DNA of 64,000 bases from Heptranchias perlo (taxonomy: Eukaryota): NCBI RefSeq assembly GCF_035084215.1, contig NC_090352.1, positions 27,652,001 through 27,716,000 of the forward strand, written 5' to 3'. This document shows, one piece after another, positions 1 through 53,716 of this stretch; within the stretch, counting starts at the first letter, position 1; each line of letters starts with the position of its first letter. The position numbers and the translations under genes are program-made. A model generated the notes under the pieces. It ran no database searches. It saw only the letters and a list, made by a program, of their open reading frames with translations, and was not told the origin of the DNA.

Positions 1-267
1 TTTTTCCCCCCTCAAGCCAAAGAGTAGCCCCATCAGCCTGAGATCAACTAACAAAGCAGAGACCATGGATTAAAACTGAGGTTTTTCTGGGTTAGGATTG
101 CACCTTGCTGTGCATTTACCTGCCAAGCCAACAGGGGAGCTGTTGCAAGTGCTTTAATCCAATAGTGCATTTTAGCACACAGTTCGAGTGACATAAGCGA
201 AGCCTGGGCCTAAAATATTAAACGGTCTTTTTTCACTGATTTTTGTCCCTTCCCTCAACCATTCTAG

Positions 268-338
268 GAATGAGAGAACAACTGGGCAGTCAACTGCCAA
301 ATGCTCTGCTACTGACACTTGAGTGGCGTTTGGGGGAT
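268..338 (+). CDS. Candidate internal exon of an unidentified gene (xMREQLGSQLPNALLLTLEWRLGD)
   Basis: Pyrimidine-rich acceptor ending ccattctAG (266-267), open frame, weak donor GTGTGA at 339; phase-compatible with 525-607. Confidence 0.3.
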
Positions 339-524
339 GTGTGACTGTGATAACATAAGTTTGCCTGCCTTCCAATTTGCCTTTCCTTTTTGTGAGGAAT
401 TGTTTCGGCTCTGCTGGACATCTCGCTCTTCCGCTAATGATATTTTTAAGAAAACACAGAACAAAATACAAGAAATAATTTTTCTTTAAAATGTACCATT
501 GATTTTTTTTTTAACATTACATAG

Positions 525-607
525 GATGCCAGTGAATTCCCTGGACAACGAGCAAACAAATGTCTCTGTTGCTGTAAAATGAATTCAACCCCGAATGCCA
601 TCCTCAA
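525..607 (+). CDS. Candidate internal exon of an unidentified gene (DASEFPGQRANKCLCCCKMNSTPNAILK)
   Basis: T-run then acatAG acceptor (523-524), donor GTAAAT at 608, open frame, phase-2 end compatible with the exon at 1285. Confidence 0.35.
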
Positions 608-950
608 GTAAATGAAACTCCCCAATAGAAGAGCAGAAAAGAATTAAAATGCTGGAATTGCACAGCAAGTCAATCAGTAGCTGAAACATTGAAGTCTTCT
701 CCCTACTCATCGGATCTCGAGAATGGAACTTCGTGAAGGGGCAATTCCATAGAAAATGTCTCAAGTCGTGCCTTTAATCAGCCGCATTAAAACACCAGTC
801 TCTCTTGCTTTTTCAGCATTTAGCATATTTGGCAATTCAGAAGGGTACACCCAAAACATCATAATCTCTTTACAGGTGCTGGCTGGTCTGCTGTGTATTT
901 TCAATATTTTCTCTTTGTTTCAGTGAATATAATTCTGGATACTAGCTCAA

Positions 951-968
951 TGGTGCCATCTAGTGGCA
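951..968 (-). promoter_or_regulatory. CTCF-binding motif
   Basis: Minus strand TGCCACTAGATGGCACCA matches the CTCF core CCACYAGRKGGCRC. Confidence 0.55.
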
Positions 969-1284
969 TTTATGTGAAATCCCACAATGGTGTGAAGCTG
1001 GAACCAAAAATAGAAGAACAAGTGGAAAATGTATAATAGAATTCAAATAATCACCTCCTGCTGATAGATGCCTAATGGGATTGTTAATGTTCATGTTATA
1101 TCACCACCTTTCATTGAGAAAGTTCAATTTTGTCACTCTATTCATCACATGTTGCTCGACTCAGCAGGTGAATACAACATGATAAATTATCAGAACTAAT
1201 AAGCTGGTTGTCTGTGCCATTGTCGTTTTTCATATAGAGTCTCCTGTTTGTGCTTTCATTTGTCATTAATTCTGCATTTTCCAG

Positions 1285-1309
1285 AGGGTACAAAGAAATC
1301 GATGATTAG
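1285..1309 (+). CDS. Candidate terminal coding exon (GYKEIDD*), followed by a short 3' UTR with AATAAA at 1430-1435
   Basis: Acceptor ttctgcattttccAG, TAG at 1307-1309, AATAAA then a GT/T-rich tract. Confidence 0.35.
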
Positions 1310-1469
1310 AAACATCAGACAATCCTCAGATTTCAATCAGTATCCTTCACCATCCCGGTCAACTGAATTTTTGTTATATAATCCCCGAGGTTTCCTGAAT
1401 TTTAAGCTTTGAAGTATATCTTTTTAGTCAATAAATAGATCGTGTTTTTCCTTGTCCCACTGCTGTTGC

Positions 1470-1831
1470 TTTACTGAGGGAGTGCTGCACTGTCGAAGGT
1501 GCCATCTTTCGGATGAGACGTCAAACCAAGGCCCACTGCCCTCTCAGGTGGATGTAAAAAATCCCATGGCATTATTCGAAGATGAGCAGGGGAGTTCGCC
1601 CCGGTGTCCTGACCAATATTTATCCCACAACCAACACCTAAAACAGATTATCTGGTCATTTATATCGTTGCTGTTTGTGGGAGCTTGCTGTGCCCAAATT
1701 GGCTGCCCCATTTCTTACATTACGGCAGTGACTATACTTCAAAAAAGTACTTCATTGGCTGTAAAGCTCTTTGGGACGTCCTGAGGTCGTGAAAGGTGCT
1801 ATAGAAATGCAAGTTCTTTCTTTCTTTCTTT
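1470..1831 (+). mobile_element. Deu-domain SINE (SacSINE1/AmnSINE1-like), 5'-truncated
   Basis: Deu-domain motifs (GGATGAGACG, CAGGTGGATGTAAA, GCTGTTTGTGGGA-CTTGCTGTGC-CAAATTGGCTGCC), L2-like tail GGTGCTATAGAAATGCAAG then (TTTC)n. Confidence 0.8.
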
Positions 1832-2851
1832 ACTATCCAAGAACAAGGTTTTTAAAAATTATCATTCGTCATTAGGTTTGTTTATGGAAACCATAGTTTT
1901 GCTCTTAACACAAGACAAAAGCACAGCTGTCACTGACTGCGTGGAAAGTGTTTGGCAGATTGCAATAGGCTCAAGGCCAGGCCTGAGACCAACTCAGATC
2001 TCAGCTGATTCTGTGAAATTCTATTGATGGTGTCTCTTTAAGTCAGTTGTCAGCCAATGAAACCCATCACTTTCATTTCTTTACTTTTTCAGGGTGAGAG
2101 AATGTTTTTATGATATATTGCGGCCTCTCCAGCTTCTTTGGACCTCCCTGCAGGTCGAAGGCTTGTTCCCAAGGCCTTTGCCGATACCTCTCCAAAACCA
2201 ACTACTCAATGTGTGCCTCGTCTCCTTCCCTACGTGGAAGCTCCTGGCCCTCTGCTCAGCACCTCACGGCTGAGCTCAATTCCTCATTGTGCGGAAAGTC
2301 CTGGCCTCGGCTTACATTCTACCACTTCACGGTGCAGCTCCAAGCAGAGCTCCCCTTTGTGATCACAATCCAGCACTTGGCTGTTTGACTCCGTCATTCC
2401 CAACACTGGGATTTTTCAATCCAACTGGGAAGATGGCAAGGAGAAATGATTCACGTCTGCATAGGTAGAGGACTAAGGTCATGGTAAGATGTGAACAGCC
2501 TCAATCTGGTGTAACTGAGGTGTGGCAGGGCAAGGGAGACATTTTTAAGAAATTACAATTTATGTATTTCTCCCAGTATACAGTTTCTCAATGTAAAACC
2601 ATTGAGTACAGTCGCTGAGGATTGTTCCCAGTGACTGAACTAGGAGAAGTACAGGATCCTGCCTCGTAGCATCAGTAAAAGCATATCCACTGTAGTTCAA
2701 ACAGTCAAATGGAGAAAAAGAATCGAGGAACCTCAAACCACAAGAGATTGGAAAGATTCCTGCCTTTCAGGGAGGAGAAAGCAGAATTCTCTTTAATATT
2801 TTTTGGGGTGGGATTTTATCCATTTATTTTCTTCACAATTACAAGTGATTT

Positions 2852-3163
2852 AAGAACATTAGAAATATGAGCAGGAGTAGGCCATACGGCCCCTCGAGCC
2901 TGCTCCGCCATTTAATATGATCATGGCTGATCTTTGACCTCAACTCCACTTTCCCGCCCAATCCCCATATCCCTTGATTCCCTTAGAGTCCAAAACTCTA
3001 TCGATCTCAGTCTTGAATATACTCAATGACTGAGCATCCACAGCCTTCTGGGGCAGAGAATTCCAAAGATTCACCACCCTCTGAGCAAAGAAATTTCTCC
3101 TCATCTCAGTCATAAATCGCCTACCACTCATCCTGAGACTATGCCCCCTAGTTGCAGACTCTC
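2852..3163 (-). mobile_element. CR1 LINE 3' fragment
   Basis: ORF2 C-terminus TRGHSLR...RRNFFAQRVVNLWNSLPQKAVDA and CR1 3' UTR hairpin/tail. Confidence 0.9.
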
Positions 3164-3529
3164 TGTTTATTTCTTTATTTGTCATCTTCCTCTCCTGTTA
3201 GATTATTCCCACCATCCTGTTGTCTTTCTACAGGAGTGGGAAAGGACAGAGCAGCCCAGCTAGCAGTCTCCTCCATGACACCCATCAATGCCATACTCCA
3301 ACTGGCCAACCCAGGCAGGCCCGCTCCCCAAGCTGGGTCACATGACCACCCGGCCCTCCTCCTCCTCGCAGCTGAACTGAGTGAAGCCCGATGAAAATTG
3401 CCTAATGAGGCAAACAATATCGAATGACAATCAAGCCAAGGGGTTAAAACTCAACTGTTGGACTTAAAGCATGGTTCTCAAAATGGGTTCCTGAATTTTA
3501 AAAAAAATCACACTTTCATTTTATGCTCC

Positions 3530-3535
3530 TTTATT
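3530..3535 (-). terminator. Putative poly(A) signal of the ARMC12-like gene
   Basis: AATAAA on the minus strand about 55 nt after the stop codon. Confidence 0.5.
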
Positions 3536-3589
3536 TTCTTCTTTTTTTAAAAAAAAAGTCCGTTCTTTCACATACACTTTACAAATACC

Positions 3590-4564
3590 TCACCCTAAGT
3601 TTGTGACTATCCGAGCAGCCTGCAGCTTAATTCTGTCATCTGGGAAAGCCATTAAATAGATAAGCCTGCTCGAAAACTGTGAGTTGGGGCCAAACAACAG
3701 GACAAAAATCGACTTCTCGCAGTATTCGTGCTTGCTCGACCTGTAGGGGAGACTCCTCCTGATCTCATTCAGATTGCTTATTAATAAGAGGAGATCATTC
3801 AGAACATCCTGCCGTTGAAAATAATTAAACAGGAAAAGGAAGGAAGCTTGAACCTGCACATTGAGTATGTCGAACGTCAGGTCCAAGTTTGTAGAAAAGT
3901 TGATGAGGATTTGTAACACTTGGAACTTGATGCTGGATGACCCCGTTTGCAGCAAGTGGAAGAAATCTGGGATTACATGTTTCAGCATGTGATGGTTCTG
4001 GTGACTGTGGGACATCTTGGTGAGGAACCTCAGACATGGCAACTGTTCGAACTCTTGGAATGTCGAAGTGGTCAATTTTAGGACCTGAGGGATATATTTA
4101 ACCAGCAGGTCACGATTTATGGGATCGTTACTGAGGAAATTGAAAACCGTCACAGCGCTGACCTTGATGTAGTTGAGTGGATCCTCCAGTGATTCCGCAA
4201 TGATGGAAAGGCCACCTTCAGAACGGAATAGCTCCTGGCTGGTCGAAAAGCCAGGGATGCGATAAATACTCGTCAGAATGGTTCCTCTAATAACAGGATC
4301 TTTACTTTCATGAAGAATAGTCAAAACTGTCTTCAGGTCCTGAAGATTCACCTTGACAGAGTTTGATGAAACAGAGTGATCTCCCACAGCACCAATACTG
4401 TCCAGGGTACTGTTCCCACACCTGTCAATGAGCAGGTCTTCATCCTCCTCCTTCTGAGTGACTAGTCCTGATCGGACAGCTCTGTATAGTAAATATGCAG
4501 CTCCTGCACCTGTTAAAATCCCTATTAACTTCTTCCTACATGGTTCATCAAAGAGTTCCCCCAT
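3590..4564 (-). CDS. ARMC12: Armadillo-repeat (Arm_2-type) protein of the ARMC10/ARMC12/ARMCX family, closest by motif to ARMC12; 324 aa, single coding exon, N-terminal hydrophobic anchor
   Basis: Intact ORF with Kozak AAAATGG. RKKLIGILTGAGAAYLLYRAVRSG, DLTFDILNVQVQASFLFLF and LFGPNSQFSSRLIYLMAFPDDRIKLQA align with recalled human ARMC12 segments (RKSVVSLATGAGAIYLLYKAIKAG, DLLYDILNCQVHSNFLNLF, LFGEESRLADRLLALVIHPEEDVQIQA). Family assignment is strong; ARMC12 orthology is less certain. Confidence 0.75.
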   Translation of the reverse strand: MGELFDEPCRKKLIGILTGAGAAYLLYRAVRSGLVTQKEEDEDLLIDRCGNSTLDSIGAVGDHSVSSNSVKVNLQDLKTVLTILHESKDPVIRGTILTSIYRIPGFSTSQELFRSEGGLSIIAESLEDPLNYIKVSAVTVFNFLSNDPINRDLLVKYIPQVLKLTTSTFQEFEQLPCLRFLTKMSHSHQNHHMLKHVIPDFFHLLQTGSSSIKFQVLQILINFSTNLDLTFDILNVQVQASFLFLFNYFQRQDVLNDLLLLISNLNEIRRSLPYRSSKHEYCEKSIFVLLFGPNSQFSSRLIYLMAFPDDRIKLQAARIVTNLG

Positions 4565-7057
4565 TTTAAATTGGTATTACTTCCCAAAGCTGCCAGATTG
4601 ACCAAATTTGGCATCAAACTGTTGTAAACTGTGCACATATTGTTCCAATTAAATCCTGCATTCTGCGCATGCAATACCTTTCAAAGTTTTGCAATAATTG
4701 TGTCATAATGATACCTGACATCATAATAGTGGACATACACAATGCAGCAATGACCAGTTACAATTAATATTGGCCCTGTGACCAGTGCAACACCACACTT
4801 CAAAGAAACACAATGTAATCGTTGGCAATGCGCTATAGCAATGGTGTGTTTCATAGCCCATCACTGCTCACTCTACCTCCATCGAAGTAAGCAGCAACAC
4901 TTCATAACAACATTGTTCACCAATCCCATCACTAAGTTTCTTACCTCCATAATAGTTTAAAAAATACTTGCACAGAAAATTTTCTGCAATGTGCTGACAG
5001 TTCTTAAAATACAAAGGGCATGGTGTTATAGCCTAGGTTATATGCTCAAGTCTGTGGAGTGGGGGTTAGCTGGATTACTAGTGGGATGTGATTGGATGGG
5101 CCCTTTCTCATTCTTGACGTTTCTGACACTGGGGTAGAGTTGACAGCAGATGGCTGATCACTGCCCTCAATCAGGAGTAAGTGTAACATTACCCTACACA
5201 GCTGCGCAAAATCTCAACAAAATTACATTTTGTAAAAATTTATCCATAACACAAATGAAGAATATTCTGAATAGTTTTCTAATTGATCCACAATGTCTAC
5301 AGTCAGAAAGAAACAGAAAATGCAACAGCGCAATTCATCCGCAAAGTTTCAATCCTGAATTATTCATTTTAGAATATAAATTAAACCAAAGTACCCCAAG
5401 GAAAATCATTGTGTGACATACTGGACTGAAAGTAATTGCACTTTGGTTCAAAAGTAGGCCAAATGCAGGCAGGGGGCATGAATGTTTCATTTCATATAGG
5501 GATTGCTGCCTTCTCTTTAGAAAAAGACTTTAATCTTATCTGATTAAAACAATGCCTGTTTTATTAATGGATGATACTTGTCTGTGGCCAACCTGAGTTT
5601 TAGTTATGTTCGTTGCAGAAGATATTAATGTGCACTCTACGTATTAATCAGATAGCTAAAGTTCATCTGTGAACAACATCAACCCAACTTTTGTATGATT
5701 TAGCACTATTCCCCTTTGAATTAAACATCCATATGTCCACACCCTGTTCAAACCATGGGCTGAACCAGACACAGGATATTCTATACCATGATGTTAATGT
5801 TGGTCCACCTGGTAGATGGACACAGTAAGAGAGACAGTCGCTTAAGATGGGCGATACTGAGAGGGACTTTTGGAAGGGCACTGAACCATGCAAAGAACAA
5901 TTTTTCTCTGAACACACGGCACTACATCAGTGATCCTTCAGTCTGCTCAGATAGAGTTTGGATGTAGCTCGAGATCCTCTGCAATTAAACAGCTCATTCC
6001 ATTGTCAGACTGTGTCATTACATTGCCACTGACTGTACCAGGATCTATCTGCACTGGCTCATTAATACTGCATTTTAGTTGCTTCCTTAGCCGACCCTGG
6101 GTTGGCAAGATGGATGGCACCCCTCCTGCCCTACATTCCCATCTCTAACACCAGCTTAAAAGCAGTGTGGTTGAGCACCATTTTATCCAGCCAAAAACAA
6201 ATCAAATTGTTTTACGCAAGGGCTACAAAGAAACCCATTTACAGTGTCAGCACCTTCAGGTGAAAGTTTCAGGTTATAATTAATAGAAACAGCTACTGTA
6301 GATGGGTCACCTTTTGCTTCTTCTGGAAGTAATGGGAAGTTAGTGTCACAGCCCAACAATAGCCAAAGACTCTTTGAAGTGAGGCATGTAAAATGAAGCC
6401 AGGATGACAAAAGACAGATGGAAAAGGAGGATAAAATATGAAATGTCTAATGGAGGAGGAGGCCGCAGTGATAAATAATCTTACCCTGTGAATTTGCTAA
6501 CTGCTCAAATGATTTTTGTACTTCTGAGGTCATTATTCTGCACTAAGGAGTGAGCAAGAGGCAATAGAGATTCAGGCAGACAGAAACGGAAAGACAGGGA
6601 AGCAGATACAGATGCAAAAAACGAAGAGAGAAAGAAACAGGCAGTCAGATCAGAGGACAAACTGGGGAGCGATTAGGTAGACAACAAAAATGGACAGTCA
6701 TCGAAGAAAAGATAGGAAGAGAGAGAGACGAAGATAGAATCCTGGTCATTCTATCTTCAGACAATGTTGCAGTATAACAATGGTTTTAATCTCTTTTTCT
6801 GCTACCAAACTTGCTTCAATTGATATACGAACATACGAAATATGACAGACAGGCAAAGACCTACCCGTCCATCCAGCCTGTCCAACAGCTTCCTTGTTGT
6901 TAACGTTTCTGGTTATGTAAGGTAGATGCACTCTGCTCAATATATCAACAAGAAGCATTTCCAAACCTCGTAGACATATCCTGGGCCACCACCCCTTGTT
7001 CTGTGAGCTTTGATGAATCCTCCATCATCATAATGTTCTTGTGATTGACTGTCACAA

Positions 7058-8002
7058 GTTACATTGAGTTACATCGAAACTACAGCACAGAAACAGGCCA
7101 TTCGGCCCAACTGGTCTATGCCGGCATTTATGCTCCACATGAGCCTCCTCCCTCCGTACTTCATCTAACCCTATCAGCATACCCTTCTATTCCTTTCTCC
7201 CTCATGTGCTTATCTAGCTTCCCCTTAATTGCATCTATGCTATTTGCCTCAACTACTCCTTGTGGTAGCGAGTTCCCCATTCTTACCACTCTTTGGGTAA
7301 TGAAGTTTCTCCTGAATTCCCTTTTGGATTTATTAGCGACTATTTTATATTTATGATCTCTAGTTTTGGAATCCCCCACAAGTGGAAACAGTTTCTCGAT
7401 GTCTACCCTATCAAACCCTTTCATTATCTTAAAGTCCAATATCAGGTCACCCCTCAGCCTTCTCTTTTCCAGCCTGTTCAGCCTTTCCTGATAAGTATAT
7501 CCTCTCAGTTCTGGTATCATCCTTGTGAATCTTTTTTGCACCTTCTCCAATGCTTCTTTATCCTTTCTATAGTATGGGGACTAGAACTGTGCACAGTACT
7601 CCAAGTGTGGTCTAACCAAGTTCTATACAAGCTCAACATAACTTCTCTGCTTTTCAATTCCATCCCTCTAGAAATGAACCCCAGTGCTTGATTTGCCTTT
7701 TTATGATCTTGTTAACCTGCATCGTTATATTTAGTGATTTGTGTATCTGTACCCCCAGATCCCTTTGCTCCTCTATCCCATTCAGACTCTCATTATCCAA
7801 GCAGTATGTAGCATCCTTATTCTTCCTACCAAAATGCACCACCTCACACTTATCTATATTGAAATTCATTTGCCAATTACACGCCCATTCTGCAGGTTTA
7901 TTAATGTCTTCTTGCATTTTGACCTGTTCCTCCTTTGTATTAACTACACACCTCCATTTGGTGTCGTCTGCAAATTTTGAAATTGTACTTCCGATTCCCA
8001 AA
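7058..8002 (-). mobile_element. CR1 LINE 3' part (RT C-terminus and 3' UTR)
   Basis: ISKFADDTK, WQMNFNIDKCEVVHFG, VQKRFTRMIP, FRRNFITQRVV. Confidence 0.92.
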
Positions 8003-8101
8003 TCGCACATGTTGAATGACCAGCACCTAGAGTAGGGCGGCATCCACTTGGCACGATCTGAACCTCAGTGCTGTCCTTCTTGTTGTTCTTATGGTTTGTA
8101 A

Positions 8102-8562
8102 CAAGGATGATACCAGAAATGAGAGGATATCCTTATCAGGAAAGGCTGAAAAAGCTGGGGCTCTTTAAGGCTGAGGGGTGACCTGATAGGGGTCTTTAAG
8201 ATAATGAAAGGGTTTGATAGGGTGGACATAGAGAAAATGTTTCCATTTGTGGGGGAGTCCAAAACTAGAGGTCATAAATATAAAATAGTCGCTAATAAAT
8301 CAAATAGGGAATTCAGAAGAAACTTCTTTACCCAAAGAGTGGTAAGAATGTGGAACGCATGACCATAAGTCGTTGTTGAGGCAAATAGCATTGATGTATT
8401 TAAGGGGAAGCTAGATAAGCACACGAGGGAGAAAGGAATAGAAGGGTATGCTAATAGGGTTAGATGATGTAGGGAGGGAGGAGGCTCGTGTGGAACATAA
8501 ACGCCAGCATAGACCAGTTGGGCCGAGTGGCCTGTTTCTGTGCTATAGTTTCGATGTAACTC
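8102..8562 (+). mobile_element. CR1 LINE 3' fragment, same subfamily as 7058-8002 but inverted
   Basis: Reverse-complement match to 7070-7530, including the 3' UTR and tail. Confidence 0.9.
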
Positions 8563-11500
8563 TGACTTCTTGCCATTTGGGTCATCAAACAGTCTCCAAT
8601 ATTTGTCCCCAGGTAGAATATTGGCAGTAGCACCACATTTTAGCTGAAGTCTGATTGCCTTGTTGTTTATGAACATGTACATAATTTGTTGGTACAGTAT
8701 ATTGGTTTTATACATATCCAACAACTTCAAGTGGGAGAATTCAACCTTCGGCTGAGTTACAGTTAGCTTTGCATGAGTTTGTGTACCAATTTCTGGACTT
8801 TGGACACATGGCTGAGAAATGGTTCAGTTCTCTACATGTATTAAAACTCCAAACCCCAGCAGGCCAGGCTTCTTTCCTTCTGACATGACACCGTCTACAC
8901 TACTGACTAGAACTTTCCAAAATTTGTTGAGCTTCACCTCTCCTTACTAAATTAAATTTAAATTAAAATCCTTTCAGCTCCTTTGATGTTGCTTCACTAG
9001 CTTTACATAGGTCAGTACAAGCTTTCATTATCAATTCTGGTTCCTGTAAAAGTCACTTCCTAGTACTGTCAATCACCAGGAATGATTCTGACTTTCTTTA
9101 AAGCCCCTGAGTTACGTGTTGTAACTAAAGTGCAGAGACTCGCTATTTATGATTCTATTGTCTCATCGGGATCATTGTCCCGATTTTTGAATATATGGCA
9201 CTTATTAGTCTCTCAAACACATTATTTTAACTTGCTAAGAACAACCTCTATCAGTCTGATCTTCATCCATCTCAAATCAAAGACCATGGCTCTCTGATTT
9301 TATAGGTAATTACGGCAGGAGTTATGACATCTTTTGACTGTTTAATGAGTTGCAATGTCCCAGATTCTCTTAAAGCTTTCTTAATTACTTGGTAAATTAT
9401 CTGTCATCTCTAGTTTTGTTGGGAAAGGTACATTTTAAATAACAGATTCACAGAGCTGTACAGTGGCTGCATTTCCAGTGCTTAACATTTTAATTTGGCA
9501 TTTTAAATTACTTTTCAGTCAAGCAAAAACAGTAATTAATCAGTTTCGAGTACTTAGCTGAAAAGTACATGGATCAGCAGGAAGCTGGCTGTCATGACTT
9601 TTTAAATGTTCTTTTTCTTTTCTTCTGTATCTTCTTTTAAAACATTCTGGTAGATTCAGAGAGAGTTCCTTCCAATTCTGACACCGTGTAATGTTCCTTA
9701 TTAAGCTGAGTTAGTAACAAACTAGGAAAAACTTCAGAGCTTCAAAAAATGTGGGTATTTACGAATCAGTCATTCCAACAGCTATCAATCATACCAACAC
9801 CTCCAGGTCAGGAGAAACAGGGAACTTTGTGCACTTAATTACCGCAGATGCAGATAAACATATGGACCTGTGGGGCCTATGCCCAGGGGCCCAGTACAAA
9901 TACCCAGTAAAACTCACCATATCACAGAAAAACTGCATACAACTGTTGGACCAAAATATTTTAGCATTTAAAAATATTGTCAGAGGGGGGAAGGAGTGAG
10001 GCAAAGTTTGTGCTTTAATGGATCGGGTGGGGGGGGCAGTGGTGCATGGAGAGGCCCCAAATGTTCCGGGTGTCTGCGGCCGCAAGAATTCTTAATGTGG
10101 CTCTGAGCTATGGAGACAAAGTAAATCATGAAGGTGAAACCAAGCCTGGGTTTTGGTAAAGTAGGACGATGATGATGAGGTGAGATGGCTTATTTACAAC
10201 TTAGGAAGAACAAAAGGTATAAATTCAGAGGCAATATTGATAAATTAGAGAGAAACAAGAAAGGTTACAGGAGGAAGAGAGCCAGGACTAAGGCTTAAGG
10301 TGAGAGAAGGTGTACCAGCAGATAAGTTTTTCCTTGTATTCTGTACAGGAGCGAGAGAGGTGTAGGACGAACCTTGCCAAATATGGGAGCAGTAGTCAGT
10401 TCATAGGCGCTTTATACAAGGAGTTAATAGTTGTTGAGAGGAAAAGGAGTGTTAGGCGTGAAAAAGGAAACCAAGCTGAAGCATTAGGATTGGAAGAGAT
10501 GTGGCAATTCCATTCAAGGTCAGGAGAGATAGTGATTTAACTTTATCTCATTAGTTTTGTTTCATCGTTTATCTGGAGTTACAATCAGTAAACTGAACAT
10601 TGCCACATCTGCATTGCCCGTGGTCCTGTGAAAAAATAAAATTCAGGCCTGACTATGCACATTACACATTGTGCAACAAGCACTGTGAGAATGGAGTAGT
10701 TGCTCATATATTGATCATTTCACTATTGAAGTGTCAAATTTTCCAGCGCACTTTTATTTTTTAATTTTTTACTAATCACAGGGGAAGAATAAAAACTAAG
10801 GGAAGCAAATGCACTAAAAAGCCACCATGGTAAAACGGACAAATAAGCCCAATCAGGAAAAAAAATAATCAAATTAGTGGAAACTACAGAGAGGGGCTAA
10901 GGTTTTATATTATCAAATAGCTTTATCTATTTTAATTGTATAGAAATCATTATACAAGAGACATTATAAACAGCTTAGACAAAACATAGCTTTACCTACT
11001 CAGGACAGTCACTAAAGCTTTGAGATAATATCTTAATCAGGCAAGTAGCATATCAGTAATGAATCAAAGAATTTAACTGTGTCCACAAGTTTGAAGTAAC
11101 CATTTCCTTCAATTATCATGGATCATGAATCTGTAGGTCTGTGTAATACTATATTATGTGCACAGTAAGAAAGTTAGATATTTTCAAAGTGGGAACAATA
11201 GCTTAATCTCTCATGTCTTTGATGACTTGCTCCACAGAGAACTTAATGGGGCAGAAATTGCTCAGAGAGGTGAACCAACAGTCCTCGCCGCTCCATAGAT
11301 TTATACTAGCCCACTAACTTACTGCGGTCTTTACTTCAGGCACTTCCTTGAATAGAGGAAGAGGAGAAGAGCCTAGCGTCAATTCAAGAGAAGCTCGGAC
11401 CCATGGGAGAAGCAAGAGGATCACACTCTCTGCTTGACCAATCGGATTGTAGCATTTTTTTGCAGCCGATTGATTTGAATTTTTAGTCTCAACACTCTGG

Positions 11501-11619
11501 GTAAAGAATAACACAGAACAATTTGAGTTTTGTCCACACAAACTAAGTGGGGCTGTCTTTTTAGTGTGACTGTCGAATTTACCATTGCTGCCACTGGTGA
11601 TTCTTATGGCCTCTGCTCT

Positions 11620-11802
11620 TAAGCTGCTTTATTTCACAGTAAGGTGAAGTTGTGAACGGACTCACTTATTTCAAACAGTACAATTATCTTTTTGCAGTAA
11701 TACAAAATAAAGAACACGCCATGCTACCGCCCATTAGTCGATTATCTTAAACAAGATAATTTCTCACCATTCTCTCTTGCAACCGTACCTTCTTGTAGCT
11801 TT
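11620..11802. repeat. Diverged direct repeat, copy 1 (copy 2 at 12580-12787)
   Basis: Shared blocks TGCTTTATTTCACAGTAA, GACTCACTTA-TTCAAACA-TACAATTATCTTTTTGCA-TAATACAAAAT, CATTAGTCG-TTATCT, CACCATTCT..TGCAACC-TACCTTCTTG. Confidence 0.85.
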
Positions 11803-12787: not shown

Positions 12788-12825
12788 TGTTGACTGACCA
12801 CCTCACAGCATTCTGTTTCAATCAC

Positions 12826-33619: not shown

Positions 33620-34490
33620 TTGGGGCGGGGGGAGAGAAATGCCAATATGGGACATTGCTGTTTGGCTGCTGCCGATCGCTTCATTGCTTTTCCTGCTAAA
33701 ACTGTACTTTGCTAGTTTGACAGCTCGCTGGTCCGCTCGGGAGGAGGGAGTCGCGGGCAGCAGCGCCCCGAAACTGATTTGCAAACCTTCAGCTCTCGCC
33801 AATTACCTCTTGAAAACATGCAAGACTTTTTCACTGGACTGCGATTGCCGGCGGGCGTGGGAACAGTGGTCACACTTCCAGACTCTCTACAGTGCAATCT
33901 GGCCAGCAAGCCGAGAGCTGGATTTCGTGCGGGAACATCTGCAGATGTCAGACGAGGGTCTGATCGCCCTGGACTGGGCGGTCAGCGGATCCGTGAGCCG
34001 GGGGCGAGCGTCCAGCAACTCGCCCACCCCGATCTTGCTGGTCATTCCCAACTCCTTGGGGAAAGTGACCAGAAACGCCTCCATGCTCTGCCTCCTCGCC
34101 CTTCGCCACGGCTACCGGCCGGTGATATTTAACCGGCGCTGCCACAACGGAGTCCCTCTCACCACCCGCAAGCTTCTGCCCTTCGGAGACCCCTCGGACC
34201 TGCGGGAAGCCGTGAGCTACATCCGATACAAACACCCCGCGGCCAAGCTGTTCGCGACGAGTGAGAGCAGCGGCTCGGGGTTGCTGCTGTCCTATCTCGG
34301 GGAGTGTGGCTCCTCCAGCTACATCACAGCGGCCGCTTGCATTTCCCCCATCTTCAGGTGTCAGGACTGGTTCGAAACGGGGCTGCTCTGGTTGTACCGC
34401 TGGATCATGCTTTTATATCAGAAAACTAGCCTCAGCAGGTAAAATCCCGACTCCAACGCCCAGCGACCATTGCAGTCCATCGACCGATGG
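33620..34490. promoter_or_regulatory. CpG-rich island over ABHD15 exon 1, preceded by a (TG)n tract and GC box GGGGCGGGG
   Basis: Marked CpG enrichment relative to the CpG-poor window; GC box at about 33622-33630. Confidence 0.65.
33639..34438 (+). CDS. ABHD15: ABHD15 (alpha/beta hydrolase domain-containing 15), coding exon 1
   Basis: N-terminal TM, LICKPSALA, REHLQMSDEGLIALDW, LLVIPNSLGKVTRN, FGDPSDLREAVSYIRYKHP, SGSGLLLSYLGECGSSSY; donor AG|GTAAAA at 34439, phase 2. Confidence 0.95.
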
Positions 34491-34914
34491 CTTTCCAGAC
34501 TTTTTTTTTGGATGGGGTAGGGAGGAGACCCTCCTAACTTCCGAAAGACAGTGTCATCTTCCTAGAGGAAAACTGCAGATTTTTTATTGGTACACAGCAA
34601 TAGGAATAATGAGCTCGCAAGTTACACACACAAAAAAAGAATTCAACCACTGCCTTATCAGGAGGGAAGGCGAGAGTAAAGTTTAGACACAGTCTCTGAA
34701 CAACATTGAAGCAAAGGAATTTCCTAGCACTTAATTGCATATATAAAAAAACAGGGAAGCAGTATTATAAATAAAATTTCATCCTATGTTCCTATTATAA
34801 TAAGATTTCAATAAAATGTAATTGCCCACTCGAACTGTGAAAATACCCACTACAATTACAGAACGTGGAAAAAAGCATTATATAACAGGAAGTGCAGTAC
34901 AACGACCGATACAC

Positions 34915-37030
34915 CAATAAAAACTGAAAATGCTAGAAATACTCAGGTCAGGTAGCAACTGTAGAGAGAGAGAAAAAGAGTTAATGTGTCAGGTTAATGA
35001 CCTTAATTCTCTAACTTCTTCCAGTTCTGACTAAATAGTTTTTAAGCAAGTACAGAGCCAGGGAAAGGAGAGGAGGGAAGGTATGTGATAGAGTGGAGGA
35101 GTGATTAAATGGCAAAGGGATGATGGTGCAAGGCAAGGGGGGTTGGTAATGGGACAAGTAGAGAAACAAAAGATGGGTCTGGAGGAACTGTAAATGGCAA
35201 CAGCAGAAACATTATCAGCACCTGCTGTCCGAAAAAATGGGAGCAGTGGTTATGATCTGAAGTTATTGAAATCAATGTTGAGTCTGGAAGGTTGTAAAGT
35301 GCCCAATCAAAAGATGAGGTGCTGTTTCTCAAGCTTCCATTGAAACAGTGTAGGAGGCCGAGGTCAGAGTGGGATTGCGACGGAGAATTAAAATGGCAAG
35401 CGACTGGAAGCTCAGGGTCAAGCCTCCAGAGTGAATGGAGGTGTTCAGCAAAGAGTTCACCCAAGTTGCATTTGGTCTCCCTAATGTAGAGGAGACCACA
35501 TCGTGAGCAGTGATTACAATATACTAAATTGAAAGTACAACAAGTAAATCGGTTTCACCTGGAAGGAATGTGTGGGGTCTGGACGGTGGGAAGGGAGGAG
35601 GCAAAAGGGCAGGTGTTGCAACTCCTGTGCTTGCATGGGAAGGTGCCCTCGGAAGAAGATCGGGTGTTGGGGGTGATGGAAGAGTGGACCAGGGTGTCGC
35701 GGAGCAAACGGTCCCTTTGAAATGCTGAAAGGGGAGCGGAGGGGAATATATGTTTGGTGGTGGGATTGCACTGGAGGTGGCAGAAATGGCAGAGGATGAT
35801 CTGTTGAATGTGGAGGCTGGTGGATGGAAGGTGAGGATAAGGGGGACCCTATCGTGGTTCTGGGAGGGAGGGGTGAGGGCAGAAGTGCGGGAAATGGGAT
35901 GGACACGGTCGAGGGTCCTGTCAACCATAATGGAGCAAAATCCTTGGTTGAGGATAAAGGACCTATCGGAAGCACTGGTGTGGAAGGTGGTATCGTCAGA
36001 ATAGATGTGACGGAGACAGAGAAACTGGGAGAATGGAATAGAGTCCTTACAGGAAGTGAGGTGAGAGGAAGTGTAATCAAGTTGGCTGTGGGAGTCAGTG
36101 GGTTTATAGTAGATATTGGTTGACAGCCGATCTCCAGAAATGGAGATAGAGAAGTCGAGGAAGGGAAGAGTCCGAGATGGACCATGTGAAGTCGAGGGAG
36201 GGGTGGAAATTGGAAGCAAAGTTGATGAAATTTTCAGCTTGGGGCGAGAGCAGGAAGCAGCACAGATACAGCCTTCAATGTAAAAAAGAGGTGAGGGAGG
36301 GGACCTGAGTGGGACTGGAACAAGAAATGTTCCACTTAGCCCACGAAAAGGCAGGCATAGCTCGGACCCATACAGGTTCCCATAGCAACACCTTTTATTT
36401 GGAGAAAGTGAGTGGAGTCAAAGGAGAAGTTGTTCAATGTAAGAACAAGTGCCGCCAGGCGGAGGAGGGTGGTGGTGGTGGATGGGGACTGGTTGGGCCT
36501 CCATTCAGGGAAGAAGCGGAGGACTAGCAGGCTGTCCTGGTGGGGGACGGAAACTCGAGGAACAGCACCTCATCTTTCAGTTAGGCACTTTACAACCTTC
36601 CGGCCTTGACATTGATTTCAGTAACTTCAGATCATAACCACTGCTCCCACTTTTTCAGACAGCATGTGTTGGTAACGGTTCTGCTGTTGCCATTTACAGC
36701 CCATCTTTTGTTTCTTTACTTGTCCCATTACCGCCCCTTTTTGCCTTGCACCATCATCCCTTTTGTTTTTTAAATCACTCCTGCCCTCCACCCTATCATA
36801 GACCTTCCCTTTTGTTCTTTCCTCCCTTTCTTCTCTCCCCCTTCCCCTGGCTCTGTACTTGCTTGAAAACTGTTAATTCTCTAACTTCTTCCAGTTCTGA
36901 TGAAAGGTCATCAACCTGACACATTAACTCCATTTCTCTCTCCACATATGCTGCCTGACCTGCTGAGTATTTCCAGCATTTTCTGTTTTTATTTCAGATT
37001 TCCAGCATCCGCAGTATTTTGCTTTTGTTT
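34915..37030 (-). mobile_element. Penelope-like element (family B) with inverted pLTR: minus-strand body 34915-36545 plus inverted copy of its 3' end at 36551-37030
   Basis: LPFLDFSISISGDRLSTNIYYKPTDSHSQLDYTSSH..CKDSIPFSQF; EHL..LPVACHFN; 36551-37030 is reverse-complementary to 34915-35330. Confidence 0.9.
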
Positions 37031-37509
37031 TAGCGATATGCCTCAATTTGATCAGAGCAGCACTAGTAGAAATGGTGCTAGGATCAACTTGAGATGATGA
37101 ATTAAAAGACATTGAAACATACTGGTATCAATACACTAAACATATCTAGTGACAACACTGTGAAGAAATCTGAAGGCAAATATCATCATTTACTTAATTT
37201 TTTTCATTTGAAACATTACCAGTCTGTTTTTCTGTTCTGATTCAGCCTAGTCTCCAAATTGCCCATGTTATAAATTTAGCTGCTCTTGTGCATCCCACAG
37301 CATTTTTGTTTGAGATGGCTCATGTGCAATGAGAACAGAAGATAACTTGGCCTTGTAAAAACAAGCAGGATATTATCCAGTCACTTTGATAACCTACACA
37401 ATCATTAAATGAAGCCAAGCCCGATCCTGTTCTCAGTTGATGTCCATAAATACCTAGTTTCCAGAACAGGGTAATTGATTTTTCCCTCCTTTGGGACAAT
37501 GAGACACCC

Positions 37510-37648
37510 AATTGATAGATTTTTGTTAACCAAAGGTATTAAGGGATATGGAGCTAAGGTGGGTTATATGGAGTTAGATCACAGATCAGCCATGATGTCA
37601 GACTTAAGGGGCTAAATGGCCTACTCCAATTCCTATGTCCCTATGTTC
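37510..37648 (+). mobile_element. CR1 extreme 3' fragment
   Basis: GATAGATTTTTG..AAGGTATTAAGGGATATGG..GATCAGCCATGAT..GGCCTACTCC..CCTATGT. Confidence 0.85.
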
Positions 37649-39044
37649 TGATTGCTTCCCCAAAGGCTGATCAGCTAATTCAACACAGGTTGGGAATCAG
37701 ACGTGGGACTTTTATGACCTTAATGGTTTAGTGCTGCACCAGGTAGTGTTTATTTTTAAAACTGCTGGACCATTGGGGATACAGAGTCAGGATTTTTGAC
37801 AAAGTTTGCTTGACAACATCCCAAGTGCATTGGTTTGATCCCCTGCTGCAAGGAACCAAGCAGAGATGTACATTAGAGAAGTCGTTCCCAGCCAGTAGGC
37901 GCATACTTCCTAGTGGCAGTATGCACGTCACTTAAAGAGACAAGAAACTAACAGATCTTATTTGTTAAGCCTTGTTGTTCTGTAAATCTCTCATGCTATT
38001 GTATGGAGGGAGTGAAGACCAATTGTAGTCTTCAGGTGAAATGGGGTTAGAGGGCAGGGAAATAATTGGACCCATTTTAAAGTCACACATGCTGTCCTAT
38101 TTTTAAAATGTCAAAACAATGGCAATTTGGGAAGCAAAGACTAGATTTGGTTGGAATATAGGCATTCCTCTGTATAGGAGTACAGGCTGAGGAGCTGGGA
38201 GATGCAAAATTAAGGTGCTACAGAGCCATCACTGGTGGGAGCATGTAGTTACAGGGTAAGAAGTTTACCTAAGCAGTTTCCATTATTAATGTAGGTATAG
38301 GAATTTATAATGGAAAAAAGTTGACAGAACATGTGTGTAAATGTAATATTATTGATATGTCATAGCTAGATATATATAAAAAGAAAGCTTTTCCATAAGC
38401 ATCCACATTACCATTATGCAATTGATACATAAAGGTAAAATTTTTGAATCCAGTTTTACAAGGGCCTAATTACAGCATATATCCTTCATTATTTGACAAG
38501 CTTATCCTTTGAACTTTTCATTATTCAGCCATTACCATATGCTTTGCTCTTCTCTATGTCCCATTTCCAATATTAGGCTCATGTACACAAGACAAGTAAA
38601 ACATTTATAGTAGGAAGCTTGAAACTTGCCCCAATACAAAATTAATATCAACTGGTAGCACGATAACTCAAATGGTTGGGTCTGCAACCCCTAATCAGAG
38701 CACTTCCAGTTCTAAGCAGCGAAGCTGCCTAGCGCTCACAATTTGCTGCCTTATATAGGAAAGTTTTGGCAGTACTAAACTGAGTTACCAGATGGAGCGT
38801 TATGCAGTCGTATGGTTTCAGTCTTGAAGGCCTAAATGTGGCAGAACTCAACCTGTCCTATTTAAACTACACCTTTGCTGCTGGACAGTCACAAAGCAGC
38901 ACACATGCTAACTGAGCAATAATTTATAACAGACCACTCAGTCTTCGTGGTTGAATTTGATTATATAGGAAAAAGGAATATTGGCAAGTGAAACAAAGAG
39001 TTGCAGCATGTTACAAGCTGGTGACCTAGCCGCTCTGATATTTA

Positions 39045-39221
39045 GGGGGTAATTTTCTCCTTCATCGCGTGGACAGTAAACTGGAGTAGCAGATCACCCG
39101 CCCGTTATAGAATCTGTCTGATTTTCATTTCCATTGAAATTAATATTGGGCGGATTTTATAGCAGGTGGACGATCCACTCTGCCAGTTTACCGCCCAAGC
39201 AGTGAAAGTGAAAATGACCCG
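39045..39221. mobile_element. Palindromic MITE (non-autonomous DNA transposon, possibly PIF/Harbinger-derived)
   Basis: Termini GGGGTAATTTTC..GAAAATGACCC, imperfect inverted arms over the whole length, centre TTTCCATTGAA. Confidence 0.65.
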
Positions 39222-39779
39222 TATTAGCCTTCAGCATGAGATCCAAATTCATTGCTAGCTGTAAAATACTCTAATTCCAGTTGCATTTACCAGAATTGCA
39301 TCAAAGCTTCTCACTGTGGCTCATTGAAAAAAAATACCAAAGGTTCTCAGTATGAACAATCTTGGCTTACAAGATTACCTCAAATCTTTTACACCGGTCA
39401 CAACCTTCAACCTTTGCAACAGTTACATATTAACTCAAACAAATATTCAGCTGCAGAGAATTATACACAGGCAAATTCTATAATCTGCCACAGTTCCAGG
39501 TAAGTTAACTCTGCAGAGAAACTTCCTCTCACCTGAGAGATACCAGGACAGTTGAACGTTCCAGGATGTGAACCCATGCCTAGAATGAAGTTTTTTTGGT
39601 GGAAGACCATTTCTAAAATAAAACCAGGAAATCCTCCATCAAATATTTTCTGATATTACAGGAAATTCAGTTGTTACTAACAAAATTTATATCATTGAAA
39701 TCGATGATACAAAGCATAAATTACAGAGCATCACAGCAGTGATGAATTTTTTGGGTATTAAACTTGTAAGGTCAGATTC

Positions 39780-40175
39780 ACCTTTTTATCAGCAGTTGAT
39801 AGCACTCTGAATTACGGATCATAAAGCTGTGGTCTTGAGCCCCATATCAGGGTTTCAGCTCACAATCCAGGCTGATACTCCAATACAGTACTGAGAAAGT
39901 CCACAAGATGTCACAAAAAAAAGTCCCAACTCTCAGTTTTGGTTGATATTAAAGGTTTCTTGCACTATGCAAAAACAGGGAGTTCGCCTAGCGTCTTCGC
40001 CAATGTTTCCCCCTCAACCAATACCACCAAAAAACGGCAATTGGTTATTAAAAGGTGACTGTGGATGTGCTGTGTTTGCCTACCTGACAGTTGCTGCAAT
40101 TCAAAAGTAATTCATTGTATGTGAAGCACTTTGTGCTATCATGGTGTGATAAGATGCTATAAAAATGCAAGTGTT
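39780..40175 (+). mobile_element. Deu-SINE, nearly full length, old
   Basis: tRNA-like head remnant, CACAATCCAGGCTGA..CAGTACTGAG, GGGAGTTC..CCCCTCAACCAA, tail GCTATAAAAATGCAAG. Confidence 0.65.
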
Positions 40176-40479
40176 AACAAATTTTCCGCGGCCACTCCTC
40201 CAGCCAAAACAAGAGTCTTATCGCTGACTGAAGGCAGCCAGCAACAGCATCCATGTAAAGACCCTCAAAGGGCAAAAGGGACCAGGTACATTTCAGAGAC
40301 TCCACTTGGCATCCTTCCAAATGTTGACTGCCTCCCAGAATGCCGTGCCAAACGTTGATCACCATGTGAAGAAATTCACCAGTGCTAGCCTATGCCTTCT
40401 TGTTCTAGTATCTTGGCTTACTGTGAAGTAACATTCTGGATTTACCTTATTTAGACTGTTCAATATTTGTATATTTTGT

Positions 40480-40790
40480 AACATCCCTTGCTCAGTAATC
40501 TCATTTGAAAGCTAGAGAGCCTCAGTCTTTCCCTGTAACCCAATATTTTGGCACTGAAGATCAGCTTCCTGATTCTTTGCACTGCTTCCATGGGTTGAAT
40601 GTTGCCCTTATGTCTTGATTACCTGAATTGACCACAGTACTGGAGGTGCAATCTGACATGGATACAGTTGTAGCACATCATCCAACTTATACCAAACTGG
40701 TGTAGTAATACAATTTAGCATTCTGTTGGCTTTATTTATTGCTGATTTGACATGTCACCCCAGATCCCTTTCTACTTCACCTTTAGCTAA
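40480..40790 (-). mobile_element. Old CR1 RT C-terminal remnant
   Basis: CACAGTACTGGAGGTGC (antisense of HLQYC) and GTCACCCCAGATCCCTTTC (antisense of ERDLG). Confidence 0.55.
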
Positions 40791-40870
40791 AATCAAATGT
40801 ATTAATTTTAAATATCACAAAATGAAACAATCTTTTCATGAATTTCTGTTATGTTGCTCTATATTTCTAG

Positions 40871-41342
40871 ATACGCCACAGTTCTTGGAGAAATACTAGA
40901 TACAGAGAAGTTATTCAGGAGCTGCACTCCCAGGGAGTTGGAGGAAGCGTTATTTTGCCAGTCTAAGATCAATAATTTAAGTTGGGATTCCTATTGGGAA
41001 AAGAATGATCCACTGAGGGATGTGGATGAGGTCGCAGTACCCCTCCTCTGTATCTGCAGCAATGATGATCCATGCAGAGGCAACCCAGAGATCACCCTGC
41101 CTTTTGAGCTATTTGAAACCAATCCATATTTCTTCCTTTTGTTAACCAAGCACGGAGGACATTGTGGCTTTTTAACAAGCAGATCTTCCACTTGGAGCCA
41201 CAAAGCTTTACTTGAATACTTCAAATCAGTCACTGAGTTTTTCAGGGCTGAGGAAAGGACAAAGAATGTTTATAGAAGAAAAGTGTCAATGATGTCCTAT
41301 AAACGGAGCTACTCACAGAAAAAAATCAGCTTGTTCTCATAA
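40871..41342 (+). CDS. ABHD15: ABHD15 coding exon 2 (spliced CDS 1272 nt, 423 aa)
   Basis: Acceptor tttctAG at 40869-70; RYATVL, ELEEALFC, YWEKNDPLRDVDEVAVPLLCICSNDDP, NPYFFLLLTKHGGHCGF; TAA at 41340-42; AATAAA at about 41524 and 41566. Confidence 0.95.

Positions 41343-53254: not shown

Positions 53255-53716
<462 letters not shown>

What the first reader, a model, noticed from the sequence alone, without database searches (positions are those of the whole stretch)
3590..4564. Intronless ARMC12-like gene in a probable shark: candidate independent retrogene paralleling the eutherian ARMCX cluster
Seen: a complete, uninterrupted 324-aa ORF with good Kozak context, an N-terminal hydrophobic anchor and a nearby poly(A) signal. 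It mixes ARMC12-type termini with ARMC10-like internal motifs (e.g. EGGLSIIA). Established: mammalian ARMC10 and ARMC12 are multi-exon mitochondria-associated genes at loci unrelated to TAOK1/ABHD15; ARMC12 is needed for the sperm mitochondrial sheath; ARMCX genes arose by retroposition of ARMC10. Inference: this is either a lineage-specific retrogene or evidence that the ARMC12 branch predates the chondrichthyan-osteichthyan split.
Basis: partly seen in the sequence, partly recalled or inferred. Interest (0 to 1): 0.7.

Follow-up and report, generated by a model that had tools for sequence, protein, structure and literature searches.

The report
Ancient intronless ARMC12 copy in sharks
Sharks, rays and a chimaera have kept an intact relative of ARMC12, the gene mammals need to wrap mitochondria around the sperm tail; here it has no introns in its coding region, so it is probably a copy made from messenger RNA, and the ARMC12 line is as old as jawed vertebrates.

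Summary
The 324-aa ORF is real (minus strand), with a strong Kozak context, an N-terminal hydrophobic helix, an Arm_2 domain and AATAAA 55 nt after the stop. Orthologues exist in 17 named elasmobranchs (72-89% identity) and the elephant shark (77%), on the ABHD15 chromosome in 15 of 15 testable species. Databases mostly call it 'ARMC10-like', but trees place it, with a second cartilaginous-fish paralogue (B, about 43%), in the ARMC12 clade (100/99). Placement with ARMC10/ARMCX is rejected (AU p=3e-5 and 0.003). Its ARMC10-like motifs are ancestral states, and it is not a chimera. Four intron positions inferred to be shared by ARMC10 and bony-vertebrate ARMC12 are absent, so the intronless state is derived. 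Best reading: an ARMC12-line retrogene older than the chimaera-shark split, probably a mitochondrial-surface adaptor. It is a single copy, not an ARMCX-like cluster, and not ARMC10-derived. Open: the intron-bearing parent (B's structure is unknown), expression, dN/dS. It is annotated but was not found in print (10 searches), nor earlier in this scan.

The parts
3590..4564 (-). Single-exon coding sequence, 324 aa, ARMC12-line Arm_2 protein (chondrichthyan paralogue 'A', P0001)
4475..4531 (-). N-terminal hydrophobic helix (residues 12-30), like the N-terminus of ARMC12/ARMC10; inferred mitochondrial targeting/adhesion segment
   Evidence: hydropathy; helix 7-34 in model at low confidence (pLDDT 42-65); function inferred from PMC8017931
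3698..4345 (-). Armadillo-like (Pfam Arm_2) domain, residues 74-289
   Evidence: E=1.8e-41; model pLDDT 72-96 from residue 71 on; armadillo-repeat fold matches
3853..4232 (-). Span holding the four inferred ancestral intron positions (after residues about 111, 155, 213, 237; boundaries 4232/4231, 4100/4099, 3926/3925, 3854/3853), all uninterrupted here
   Evidence: exon-skip-type deletions in ARMC10 and ARMC12 protein models; coordinates
4561..4579 (-). Start context: in-frame upstream TAA (4577-4579), A at -3, ATG, G at +4
4565..4734 (-). 5' flank conserved with the white shark orthologue (there annotated as an N-terminal extension; here closed by stops and a frame change): probable 5' UTR
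   Evidence: tblastn of P0022 residues 1-60, E=3.5e-16
3588..3596 (-). Splice-donor-like site overlapping Gly324 and the stop codon
   Evidence: sequence; Narcine isoform X1 continues after the matching residue (P0023); use in this species not shown
3530..3535 (-). AATAAA poly(A) signal 55 nt after the stop
33639..41342 (+). Neighbour, not part of the gene: two-exon ABHD15-like gene, used as synteny marker

Best explanation
This is a functional, long-conserved gene of the ARMC12 branch of the ARMC10/ARMC12/ARMCX family. It arose as a processed (reverse-transcribed) copy of a spliced ARMC12 mRNA before the chimaera-elasmobranch split and inserted on the ABHD15 chromosome. After a burst of change it came under strong constraint. 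Its protein probably works like mammalian ARMC12: the N-terminal hydrophobic helix brings it to the mitochondrial outer surface and drives mitochondrion-mitochondrion adhesion, while the armadillo solenoid binds partners, most likely in spermatids building the elongated midpiece. SHOWN: intact uninterrupted CDS, conservation, chromosome-level synteny in elasmobranchs, ARMC12-side placement, armadillo fold. INFERRED: ancestral intron positions (from protein models), retroposition as the route (about 0.8), mitochondrial targeting (about 0.8), testis role (about 0.55).
For: Conservation: orthologues at 72-89% in 17 named elasmobranch species plus one unnamed Logan protein and 77% in Callorhinchus (P0174, an old RefSeq model named 'ARMC12'). 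Heterodontus versus chimaera identity is 75%, against 79% for ABHD15. Phylogeny (45 rows, LG+C20+F+G4): A+B 100/95, sister to bony-vertebrate ARMC12 (sturgeon, paddlefish, two teleosts, frog, amniotes), whole clade 100/99. A with ARMC10+ARMCX rejected, p-AU 2.9e-5; A+B with them rejected, p 0.0027. Without outgroups, A+B with shark ARMC10 rejected, p 4.5e-5. Both halves of the domain give the ARMC12 clade. 14 of 20 ARMC10-type residues also occur in at least 4 of 9 invertebrate-type outgroups, while ARMC12-type N235 and Y274 occur in 0 of 9. Introns: of 134 family proteins examined, 6 ARMC10-type and 7 ARMC12-type models (sturgeon, frog and goose among them) lack blocks that begin or end at query residues about 111, 155, 213 and 237; 0 of 24 A-type records do. 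Human ARMC12 has 6 exons with C229 in exon 5 (PMC13062846), and that Cys aligns with query V236, just before the last boundary. Function by homology: the N-terminus of mouse ARMC12 is required for mitochondrial clustering (PMC8017931); duck ARMC12 is strongly induced in mature testis (PMC12419092).
Against: No intron-bearing chondrichthyan ARMC12 parent was seen: no genome is held, and B's exon structure is unknown (4 proteins, none with a skip at the four positions). Intron absence in the chimaera and ray orthologues was not read from DNA. By raw similarity the best non-A/B hits are shark ARMC10 (33%), ahead of ARMC12 (at most 29%), and ARMC10-type residues outnumber ARMC12-type 20 to 10 before polarising. 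With bony-vertebrate ARMC12 removed, the position of A+B is unresolved and a clade with shark ARMC10 is not rejected (p-AU 0.27); ARMC12 lineages are long-branched. No poly(A) tail remnant was evident by eye and target-site repeats were not searched for. Expression and dN/dS are untested. V236 replaces the Cys whose change to Tyr is reported as pathogenic in human ARMC12, so the function need not be identical.
Confidence: 0.65

Rival explanations
1. A is on the ARMC12 branch but is not itself the retroposition product. Either the chondrichthyan ARMC12 lost its introns once (retrocopy replacing the parent, or cDNA-mediated intron loss) and A and B are later DNA-level duplicates, or A moved as DNA and lost its introns afterwards.
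For: A and B are sisters (100/95; 89/88); no B model shows an exon skip (0 of 4); B's structure could not be read.
Against: Four B proteins are too few to say anything about introns. Losing all four or more introns without an mRNA intermediate is unusual (general knowledge). B sits on a different contig from A in both sharks where both are known, as a parent left at the old locus would.
Confidence: 0.18
2. A is older than the split of jawed vertebrates: B is the true orthologue of bony-vertebrate ARMC12, and A is an earlier retrocopy that bony vertebrates lost.
For: The tree with B + bony-vertebrate ARMC12, A outside, is not rejected (p-AU 0.25), whereas A + bony-vertebrate ARMC12 without B is weakly rejected (p 0.033).
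Against: The best trees join A and B. No A-type protein outside cartilaginous fishes was identified among the hits (most of the 150 listed are unnamed).
Confidence: 0.1
3. A is a retrocopy of ARMC10, a true parallel to eutherian ARMCX, drawn to ARMC12 by long-branch attraction.
For: Database name 'ARMC10-like'; the best BLAST hits outside A/B are shark ARMC10; not rejected when ARMC12 is left out (p 0.27).
Against: Rejected at p-AU 2.9e-5, 0.0027 and 4.5e-5 when ARMC12 is present. Even without ARMC12 the best tree does not join A+B to shark ARMC10. Shared residues are mostly ancestral. The three top Atlas clusters by features score alike (0.97) and two of them are named ARMC12.
Confidence: 0.06
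4. A is a processed pseudogene whose frame is open by chance.
For: No expression data.
Against: Full-length protein models in 17 named elasmobranchs and a chimaera with 72-89% identity; RefSeq lists three isoforms in Narcine.
Confidence: 0.01

Closest known systems
ARMC12 (mammals, reptiles, birds; also database entries in frog, sturgeon and paddlefish)
   Same: Same clade (100/99); same layout of N-terminal hydrophobic helix, linker and Arm_2 domain; shared derived residues N235 and Y274 (Y274 is not kept in sturgeon); ends at the same alignment column as sturgeon ARMC12-like.
   Different: No introns in the CDS (human gene has 6 exons); lies by ABHD15, not at the 6p21.31-type locus; keeps the ancestral F..Q...R...GG motif that bony-vertebrate ARMC12 lost; only 24-29% identical; Val where human has Cys229; expression unknown.
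ARMC10/SVH
   Same: Same Pfam family; 27-33% identity; ancestral motifs retained.
   Different: Sharks have a separate ARMC10 on another chromosome (P0029, P0176), 31% identical to A in the white shark; ARMC10 is multi-exon (PMC5424104).
Eutherian ARMCX1-6/GPRASP cluster
   Same: Single-exon CDS from a multi-exon Arm_2 ancestor (PMC5424104); long-term retention.
   Different: ARMCX nests in mammalian ARMC10 (100/100) and expanded in tandem on the X; A is on the ARMC12 branch, far older, and a single copy in this window.
Chondrichthyan paralogue B (P0012, P0013, P0025, P0026; named 'ARMC10-like')
   Same: Sister group; 43-44% identity for the shark copies; also present in chimaera.
   Different: Different chromosome; less conserved between shark and chimaera (48% versus 75%); seen in only 4 species; exon structure unknown; candidate parent.
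Shark CTCFL (PMC7471279), as an analogous case
   Same: A testis gene thought to be amniote-restricted turns out to have shark orthologues (abstract seen).
   Different: There, synteny and testis-biased expression were shown; here expression is untested.

Membership tests
Arm_2 family (ARMC10/ARMC12/ARMCX) | Pfam Arm_2 domain above cut-off, armadillo-type helical solenoid | tested here: met
   142.5 bits against cut-off 20.4; all-helical model, mean pLDDT 80; top Foldseek matches are designed armadillo-repeat and engineered proteins
Arm_2 family (ARMC10/ARMC12/ARMCX) | N-terminal hydrophobic segment | tested here: met
   residues 12-30, mean KD 1.19, range 0.81-2.15 among 12 family proteins
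ARMC12 (co-orthologue) | Groups with ARMC12 to the exclusion of ARMC10/ARMCX | tested here: met
   caveat
ARMC12 (co-orthologue) | Ancestral locus (FKBP5 region, human 6p21.31) and six-exon structure | tested here: not met
   CDS has no intron and the neighbour is ABHD15; so it is not the positional orthologue. No gene was identified on its far side, left of the window
ARMC12 (co-orthologue) | Spermatid-enriched expression | tested here: inconclusive
   No listed run is on record as RNA; contig cover cannot be read as expression; catshark expression supplements unreadable
ARMC12 (co-orthologue) | Mitochondrial outer-membrane location, clustering activity, VDAC2/3-MIC60-TBC1D21 binding | not testable with these tools
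   bench work; homology only
ARMC10 / ARMCX (ARMC10-derived retrogenes) | Nests within ARMC10 | tested here: not met
   AU rejection; not rejected only when ARMC12 is omitted
ARMC10 / ARMCX (ARMC10-derived retrogenes) | Tandem cluster of single-exon copies | tested here: not met
   one Arm_2 locus in 64 kb by tblastn with 5 family queries; the gene is 3.6 kb from the window's left end, so a copy further left is not excluded
Retrogene | Lacks introns that the ancestral gene had | tested here: met
   four positions inferred from protein models are uninterrupted; contigs of a related organism in run X1 also span all four without gaps (3624-4270), though that run may be RNA
Retrogene | Location unlinked to the parent locus | tested here: inconclusive
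   different contig from shark ARMC10 and from B; the chondrichthyan ancestral ARMC12 locus itself was not identified
Retrogene | Intron-bearing parent in the same lineage | not testable with these tools
   no genome held; metagenome scan for A/B DNA gave 0 confirmed of 366 pattern matches
Retrogene | Poly(A) remnant and target-site duplications | not tested
   nothing evident by eye; not expected at this age
Retrogene | Purifying selection (dN/dS below 1) | tested here: inconclusive
   no orthologue DNA; strong protein conservation; 5 of the 9 listed CDS differences in run X1 are synonymous, but these 9 are a cut list

The most novel reading that the evidence does not exclude
A testis-expressed ARMC12 already existed in the first jawed vertebrates. 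In the chondrichthyan stem it produced a processed copy (A) that became the main, and in rays and most galeomorph sharks the only, ARMC12, because the intron-bearing parent (B, seen here in just four species) was lost there. A would then be an orphan retrogene over 400 million years old that organises mitochondria in the elongated midpiece of chondrichthyan sperm, a second independent retroposition in the family that gave eutherians ARMCX.
Probability: 0.25. Interest if true: 0.65.

Novelty: new member of a known kind. Interest (0 to 1): 0.42.

Why it matters
Papers describe ARMC12 as conserved in reptiles, marsupials and mammals (PMC8017931) and absent from non-mammals such as zebrafish (PMC8666550), and ARMC10 as single-copy in vertebrates (PMC5424104). 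The trees here put two mis-named shark/chimaera genes, sturgeon and frog genes, and two divergent unnamed teleost genes (Dallia, Coilia) on the ARMC12 branch. That dates the ARMC10/ARMC12 split to before living jawed vertebrates diverged. It gives a direct test of whether ARMC12-driven mitochondrial adhesion in sperm is ancestral to gnathostomes, and adds a very old retained retrogene. The surprise is moderate: old retrogenes are a known kind, the gene is already annotated, and database names had already called chimaera, sturgeon and frog proteins ARMC12.

Tried and rejected
1) Own-genome search for a parent: no genome held. 2) Sequencing runs: no RNA holder listed. Laying 4 of the 6 listed runs on window 1-20000 gave contigs over the CDS but also over intergenic stretches and repeats; run type is a guess and holders are selected for covering the gene, so this is not used for or against expression. 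No joint at the gene was among the 15 shown of 294. 3) Metagenome scan for A/B DNA: 0 of 366 pattern matches confirmed. 4) Profile search with alignment A3 returned mostly bird, turtle and sturgeon ARMC12 and not even the shark rows of its own query, so it says nothing on B's range. 5) Chimera of ARMC10 and ARMC12: rejected, both halves group with ARMC12. 6) Host gene: 87 minus-strand stop-to-stop frames of 52 aa or more in 1-33600 (of 89 listed; the CDS and an overlapping frame left out) gave only one weak reverse-transcriptase hit in Pfam; plus-strand frames were not scanned, so a host gene is not excluded. 7) The two Ensembl-type chimaera fragments (P0027, P0175) break near residue 161/174, not at an inferred ancestral intron, and were not taken as evidence of introns. 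8) Narcine and whale-shark C-terminal extensions have no significant match in the window (best E 0.065). 9) No PDB relative by sequence. 10) RefSeq accession order was too irregular to show micro-synteny, and gave nothing for the chimaera. 11) Supplements of PMC11979771 and PMC13052469 (catshark transcriptome/testis proteome) could not be read and may bear on expression. 12) complex prediction was not used: no partner sequence was in hand.

Full report
OBSERVATION. The finding gives no strand; the ORF is on the minus strand. window 4564-3590 reads ATG to TGA, 324 aa, uninterrupted. An in-frame TAA five codons upstream closes the frame. The start has A at -3 and G at +4, AATAAA begins 55 nt after the stop (background about 1 per kb), and residues 12-30 form a moderately hydrophobic stretch. 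Pfam Arm_2 covers residues 74-289 at E=1.8e-41. The AlphaFold model (21-row alignment, mean pLDDT 80) shows an N-terminal helix at low confidence, a disordered linker (34-70) and a confident helical solenoid; the best PDB fold matches are designed armadillo-repeat and engineered proteins. A database protein 100% identical to the first exon of the window's ABHD15-like gene, on a contig of the same length as that of the query protein (41,663,488), is labelled Heptranchias perlo by its source, so 'probable shark' holds.

DISTRIBUTION. The search with the protein returned 13 hits, the query included: 10 orthologue clusters at 72-89% and two proteins at 43-44%. Expanding clusters gave 17 named shark and ray species, all with 'armadillo repeat-containing protein 10-like' entries. 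The profile search of 1.84 billion representatives (275 hits, best 150 listed) added a Callorhinchus orthologue, whose cluster holds a 328-aa old RefSeq model named 'PREDICTED: armadillo repeat-containing protein 12' (P0174; 77% identity). It also added a second chondrichthyan paralogue, B (Pristiophorus, Heptranchias, Heterodontus, Callorhinchus), a separate shark ARMC10 (P0029, P0176), sturgeon and paddlefish 'ARMC12-like', tailed-frog ARMC12, and unnamed proteins from Dallia and Coilia. So cartilaginous fishes have three family members: ARMC10, A (this gene) and B.

PHYLOGENY. Raw similarity misleads: outside A and B the best hits are shark ARMC10 at 33%, ARMC12 at most 29%. A tree of 45 hand-picked rows (near-full-length rows; fragments and near-duplicates left out; many group labels rest on likeness to named entries, and the nine outgroup rows are unnamed and taken as invertebrate from their position) under LG+C20+F+G4 gave A (100/100) and B (100/99) as sisters (100/95). 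Together they are sister to bony-vertebrate ARMC12 (97/90), and the whole ARMC12 clade is 100/99; ARMCX nests with mammalian ARMC10. AU tests: A with ARMC10+ARMCX p=2.9e-5; A+B with them p=0.0027; B with bony-vertebrate ARMC12 and A outside p=0.25; A with them and B outside p=0.033. The first two alternatives come from the finding itself; the last two were framed after seeing the tree. Residues 72-190 and 191-324, analysed apart (26 rows, LG+G4), each recover the ARMC12 clade (99/99 and 94/93), so there is no chimerism. Without outgroups the ARMC12 grouping is 100/100 and A+B with shark ARMC10 is rejected (p=4.5e-5). Against this reading: with bony-vertebrate ARMC12 removed, A+B sits unresolved and a clade with shark ARMC10 is not rejected (p=0.27), though it is not the best tree. 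Of 20 query residues shared with ARMC10/ARMCX but not bony-vertebrate ARMC12, 14 occur in at least 4 of 9 outgroups, including F106, Q110, R114 and G118 of the EGGLS region. Of 10 ARMC12-type residues, 4 are also common in outgroups and 2 (N235, Y274) are in none; 2 of the 20 ARMC10-type residues are likewise in at most one outgroup. The site count alone is therefore neutral, and the placement rests on the likelihood analyses.

INTRON LOSS. No genomic DNA of relatives was available, so ancestral introns were inferred from exon-skip-type deletions in 134 family proteins aligned to 15 references. Six ARMC10-type models (P0035 coelacanth, P0042 caecilian, P0071, P0073, P0075, P0093) and seven ARMC12-type models (P0080 and P0186 sturgeon, P0196 and P0197 goose, P0346 frog, P0085, P0090) lose blocks bounded by query residues about 111, 155, 213 and 237. 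The same boundaries in both branches, sturgeon included, imply that the ancestral ARMC12 had these introns. This fits human ARMC12 having six exons with C229 in exon 5 (PMC13062846, passages): by hand count on a mammalian sequence (P0088) that Cys aligns with query V236. None of 24 A-type records and none of 4 B records show such deletions, and the window has no intron at any of the four. The intronless CDS is therefore derived. It is shown from DNA only for this window. One contig of a related organism spans all four positions without gaps (X1, 3624-4270, 15 differences), but that run's type is unknown. UTR introns are not excluded: a donor-like site overlaps the stop, and three RefSeq isoforms of the Narcine orthologue are extended by splicing there.

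LOCATION. Using contig length as a chromosome tag, A and an ABHD15 gene share a contig in 15 of 15 elasmobranch species with both values; Pristiophorus, Mobula birostris and Callorhinchus could not be tested. This is chromosome-level, not gene-order, synteny. Shark ARMC10 (white and basking shark) and B (horn shark and the Heptranchias-labelled entry) are on other contigs. Human ARMC12 is at 6p21.31; its adjacency to FKBP5 is recalled and fits the listing. ARMC10's conserved neighbours include FBXL13 and NAPEPLD (PMC5424104, passages). The TAOK1 label for the exon at 53255-53716 is recalled, not tested (Pfam gave nothing). The window holds one Arm_2 locus only.

CONSTRAINT. Horn shark versus chimaera identity is 75% for A, 79% for ABHD15 and 48% for B. 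A has a long stem (0.69) and short crown branches (0.03-0.28), the pattern of a duplicate that changed quickly and was then held. dN/dS could not be computed. The chimaera-elasmobranch split at a little over 400 million years is recalled.

MECHANISM. Inferred, not shown: germ-line ARMC12 mRNA was reverse-transcribed and inserted on the ABHD15 chromosome in the chondrichthyan stem (CR1-type LINE remains are common in the window; family name recalled, RVT_1 hit). The product keeps the N-terminal helix that mouse ARMC12 needs to cluster mitochondria (PMC8017931, passages and section 11; there ARMC12 is salt-extractable, so 'anchor' may mean a peripheral attachment). It also keeps the armadillo domain for partner binding. 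ARMC12 is testis-enriched in mouse and strongly induced in mature duck testis (PMC12419092, passages), and elasmobranch sperm have an elongated, twisted midpiece (PMC11856307, passages). A spermatid role is the best guess, about 0.55.

LITERATURE. Ten searches found no paper on shark or chimaera ARMC10/ARMC12; most subscription journals are not covered. [quoted passage not shown] A 2025 preprint (10.1101/2025.04.02.646874, passages) groups ARMC10, ARMC12, ARMCX and GPRASP in one clade and never mentions sharks in its main text; its supplements were not read. PMC7471279 (abstract) is an analogous case for CTCFL. PMC3022923 (passages) was read for context only. Supplements of PMC11979771 and PMC13052469 could not be read and may hold expression data. 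The scan's own notes hold nothing on this gene, but record other old intronless copies in cartilaginous fishes (KPNA4, BAFF, NSMCE3; unchecked), which makes the kind less unusual.

VERDICT. A real, conserved, mis-named gene: an ARMC12 co-orthologue with a derived intronless coding sequence, most likely an ancient retrogene. New member of a known kind; interest 0.42.

Noticed in passing
P0012, P0013, P0025, P0026 (not in window): Second chondrichthyan ARMC12-line paralogue (B), named 'ARMC10-like', seen in only four species (two squalomorph sharks, horn shark, chimaera). The search with the query found 2 of these 4, so absence from rays and other sharks is a lead, not shown. The Heptranchias-labelled model P0013 diverges after query residue 289.
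   Followed up: partly
P0114 (Dallia pectoralis), P0119 (Coilia grayii): Unnamed teleost proteins group with sturgeon ARMC12-like (100/99, long branches), suggesting some teleosts keep a very divergent ARMC12.
   Followed up: partly
window 33639-41342: ABHD15 appears as two paralogues on one chromosome in many sharks and rays, amphibians, lungfish and coelacanth; the window's copy is 69% identical to a second one on the same contig (P0332).
   Followed up: no
window 1-33600: No trace of TP53I13, the usual head-to-head neighbour of ABHD15 in mammals (recalled), was found among minus-strand frames by Pfam; short or divergent exons would be missed.
   Followed up: partly
window 4035-4240, run X5 record 25: A 281-letter contig fits for 206 letters and then departs at about codon 177, which is not an inferred ancestral intron position; unexplained (chimeric contig or a species difference).
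   Followed up: no
window 12860-12990: Inverted arrangement of a repeat end around a short tandem unit (12899-12926); the same repeat end occurs near 30430-30490.
   Followed up: no
window 7045-8064, 22472-23275, 54684-56471, 60438-62754: Long open frames from LINE (CR1-type, name recalled) reverse-transcriptase remnants, up to 423 aa.
   Followed up: no
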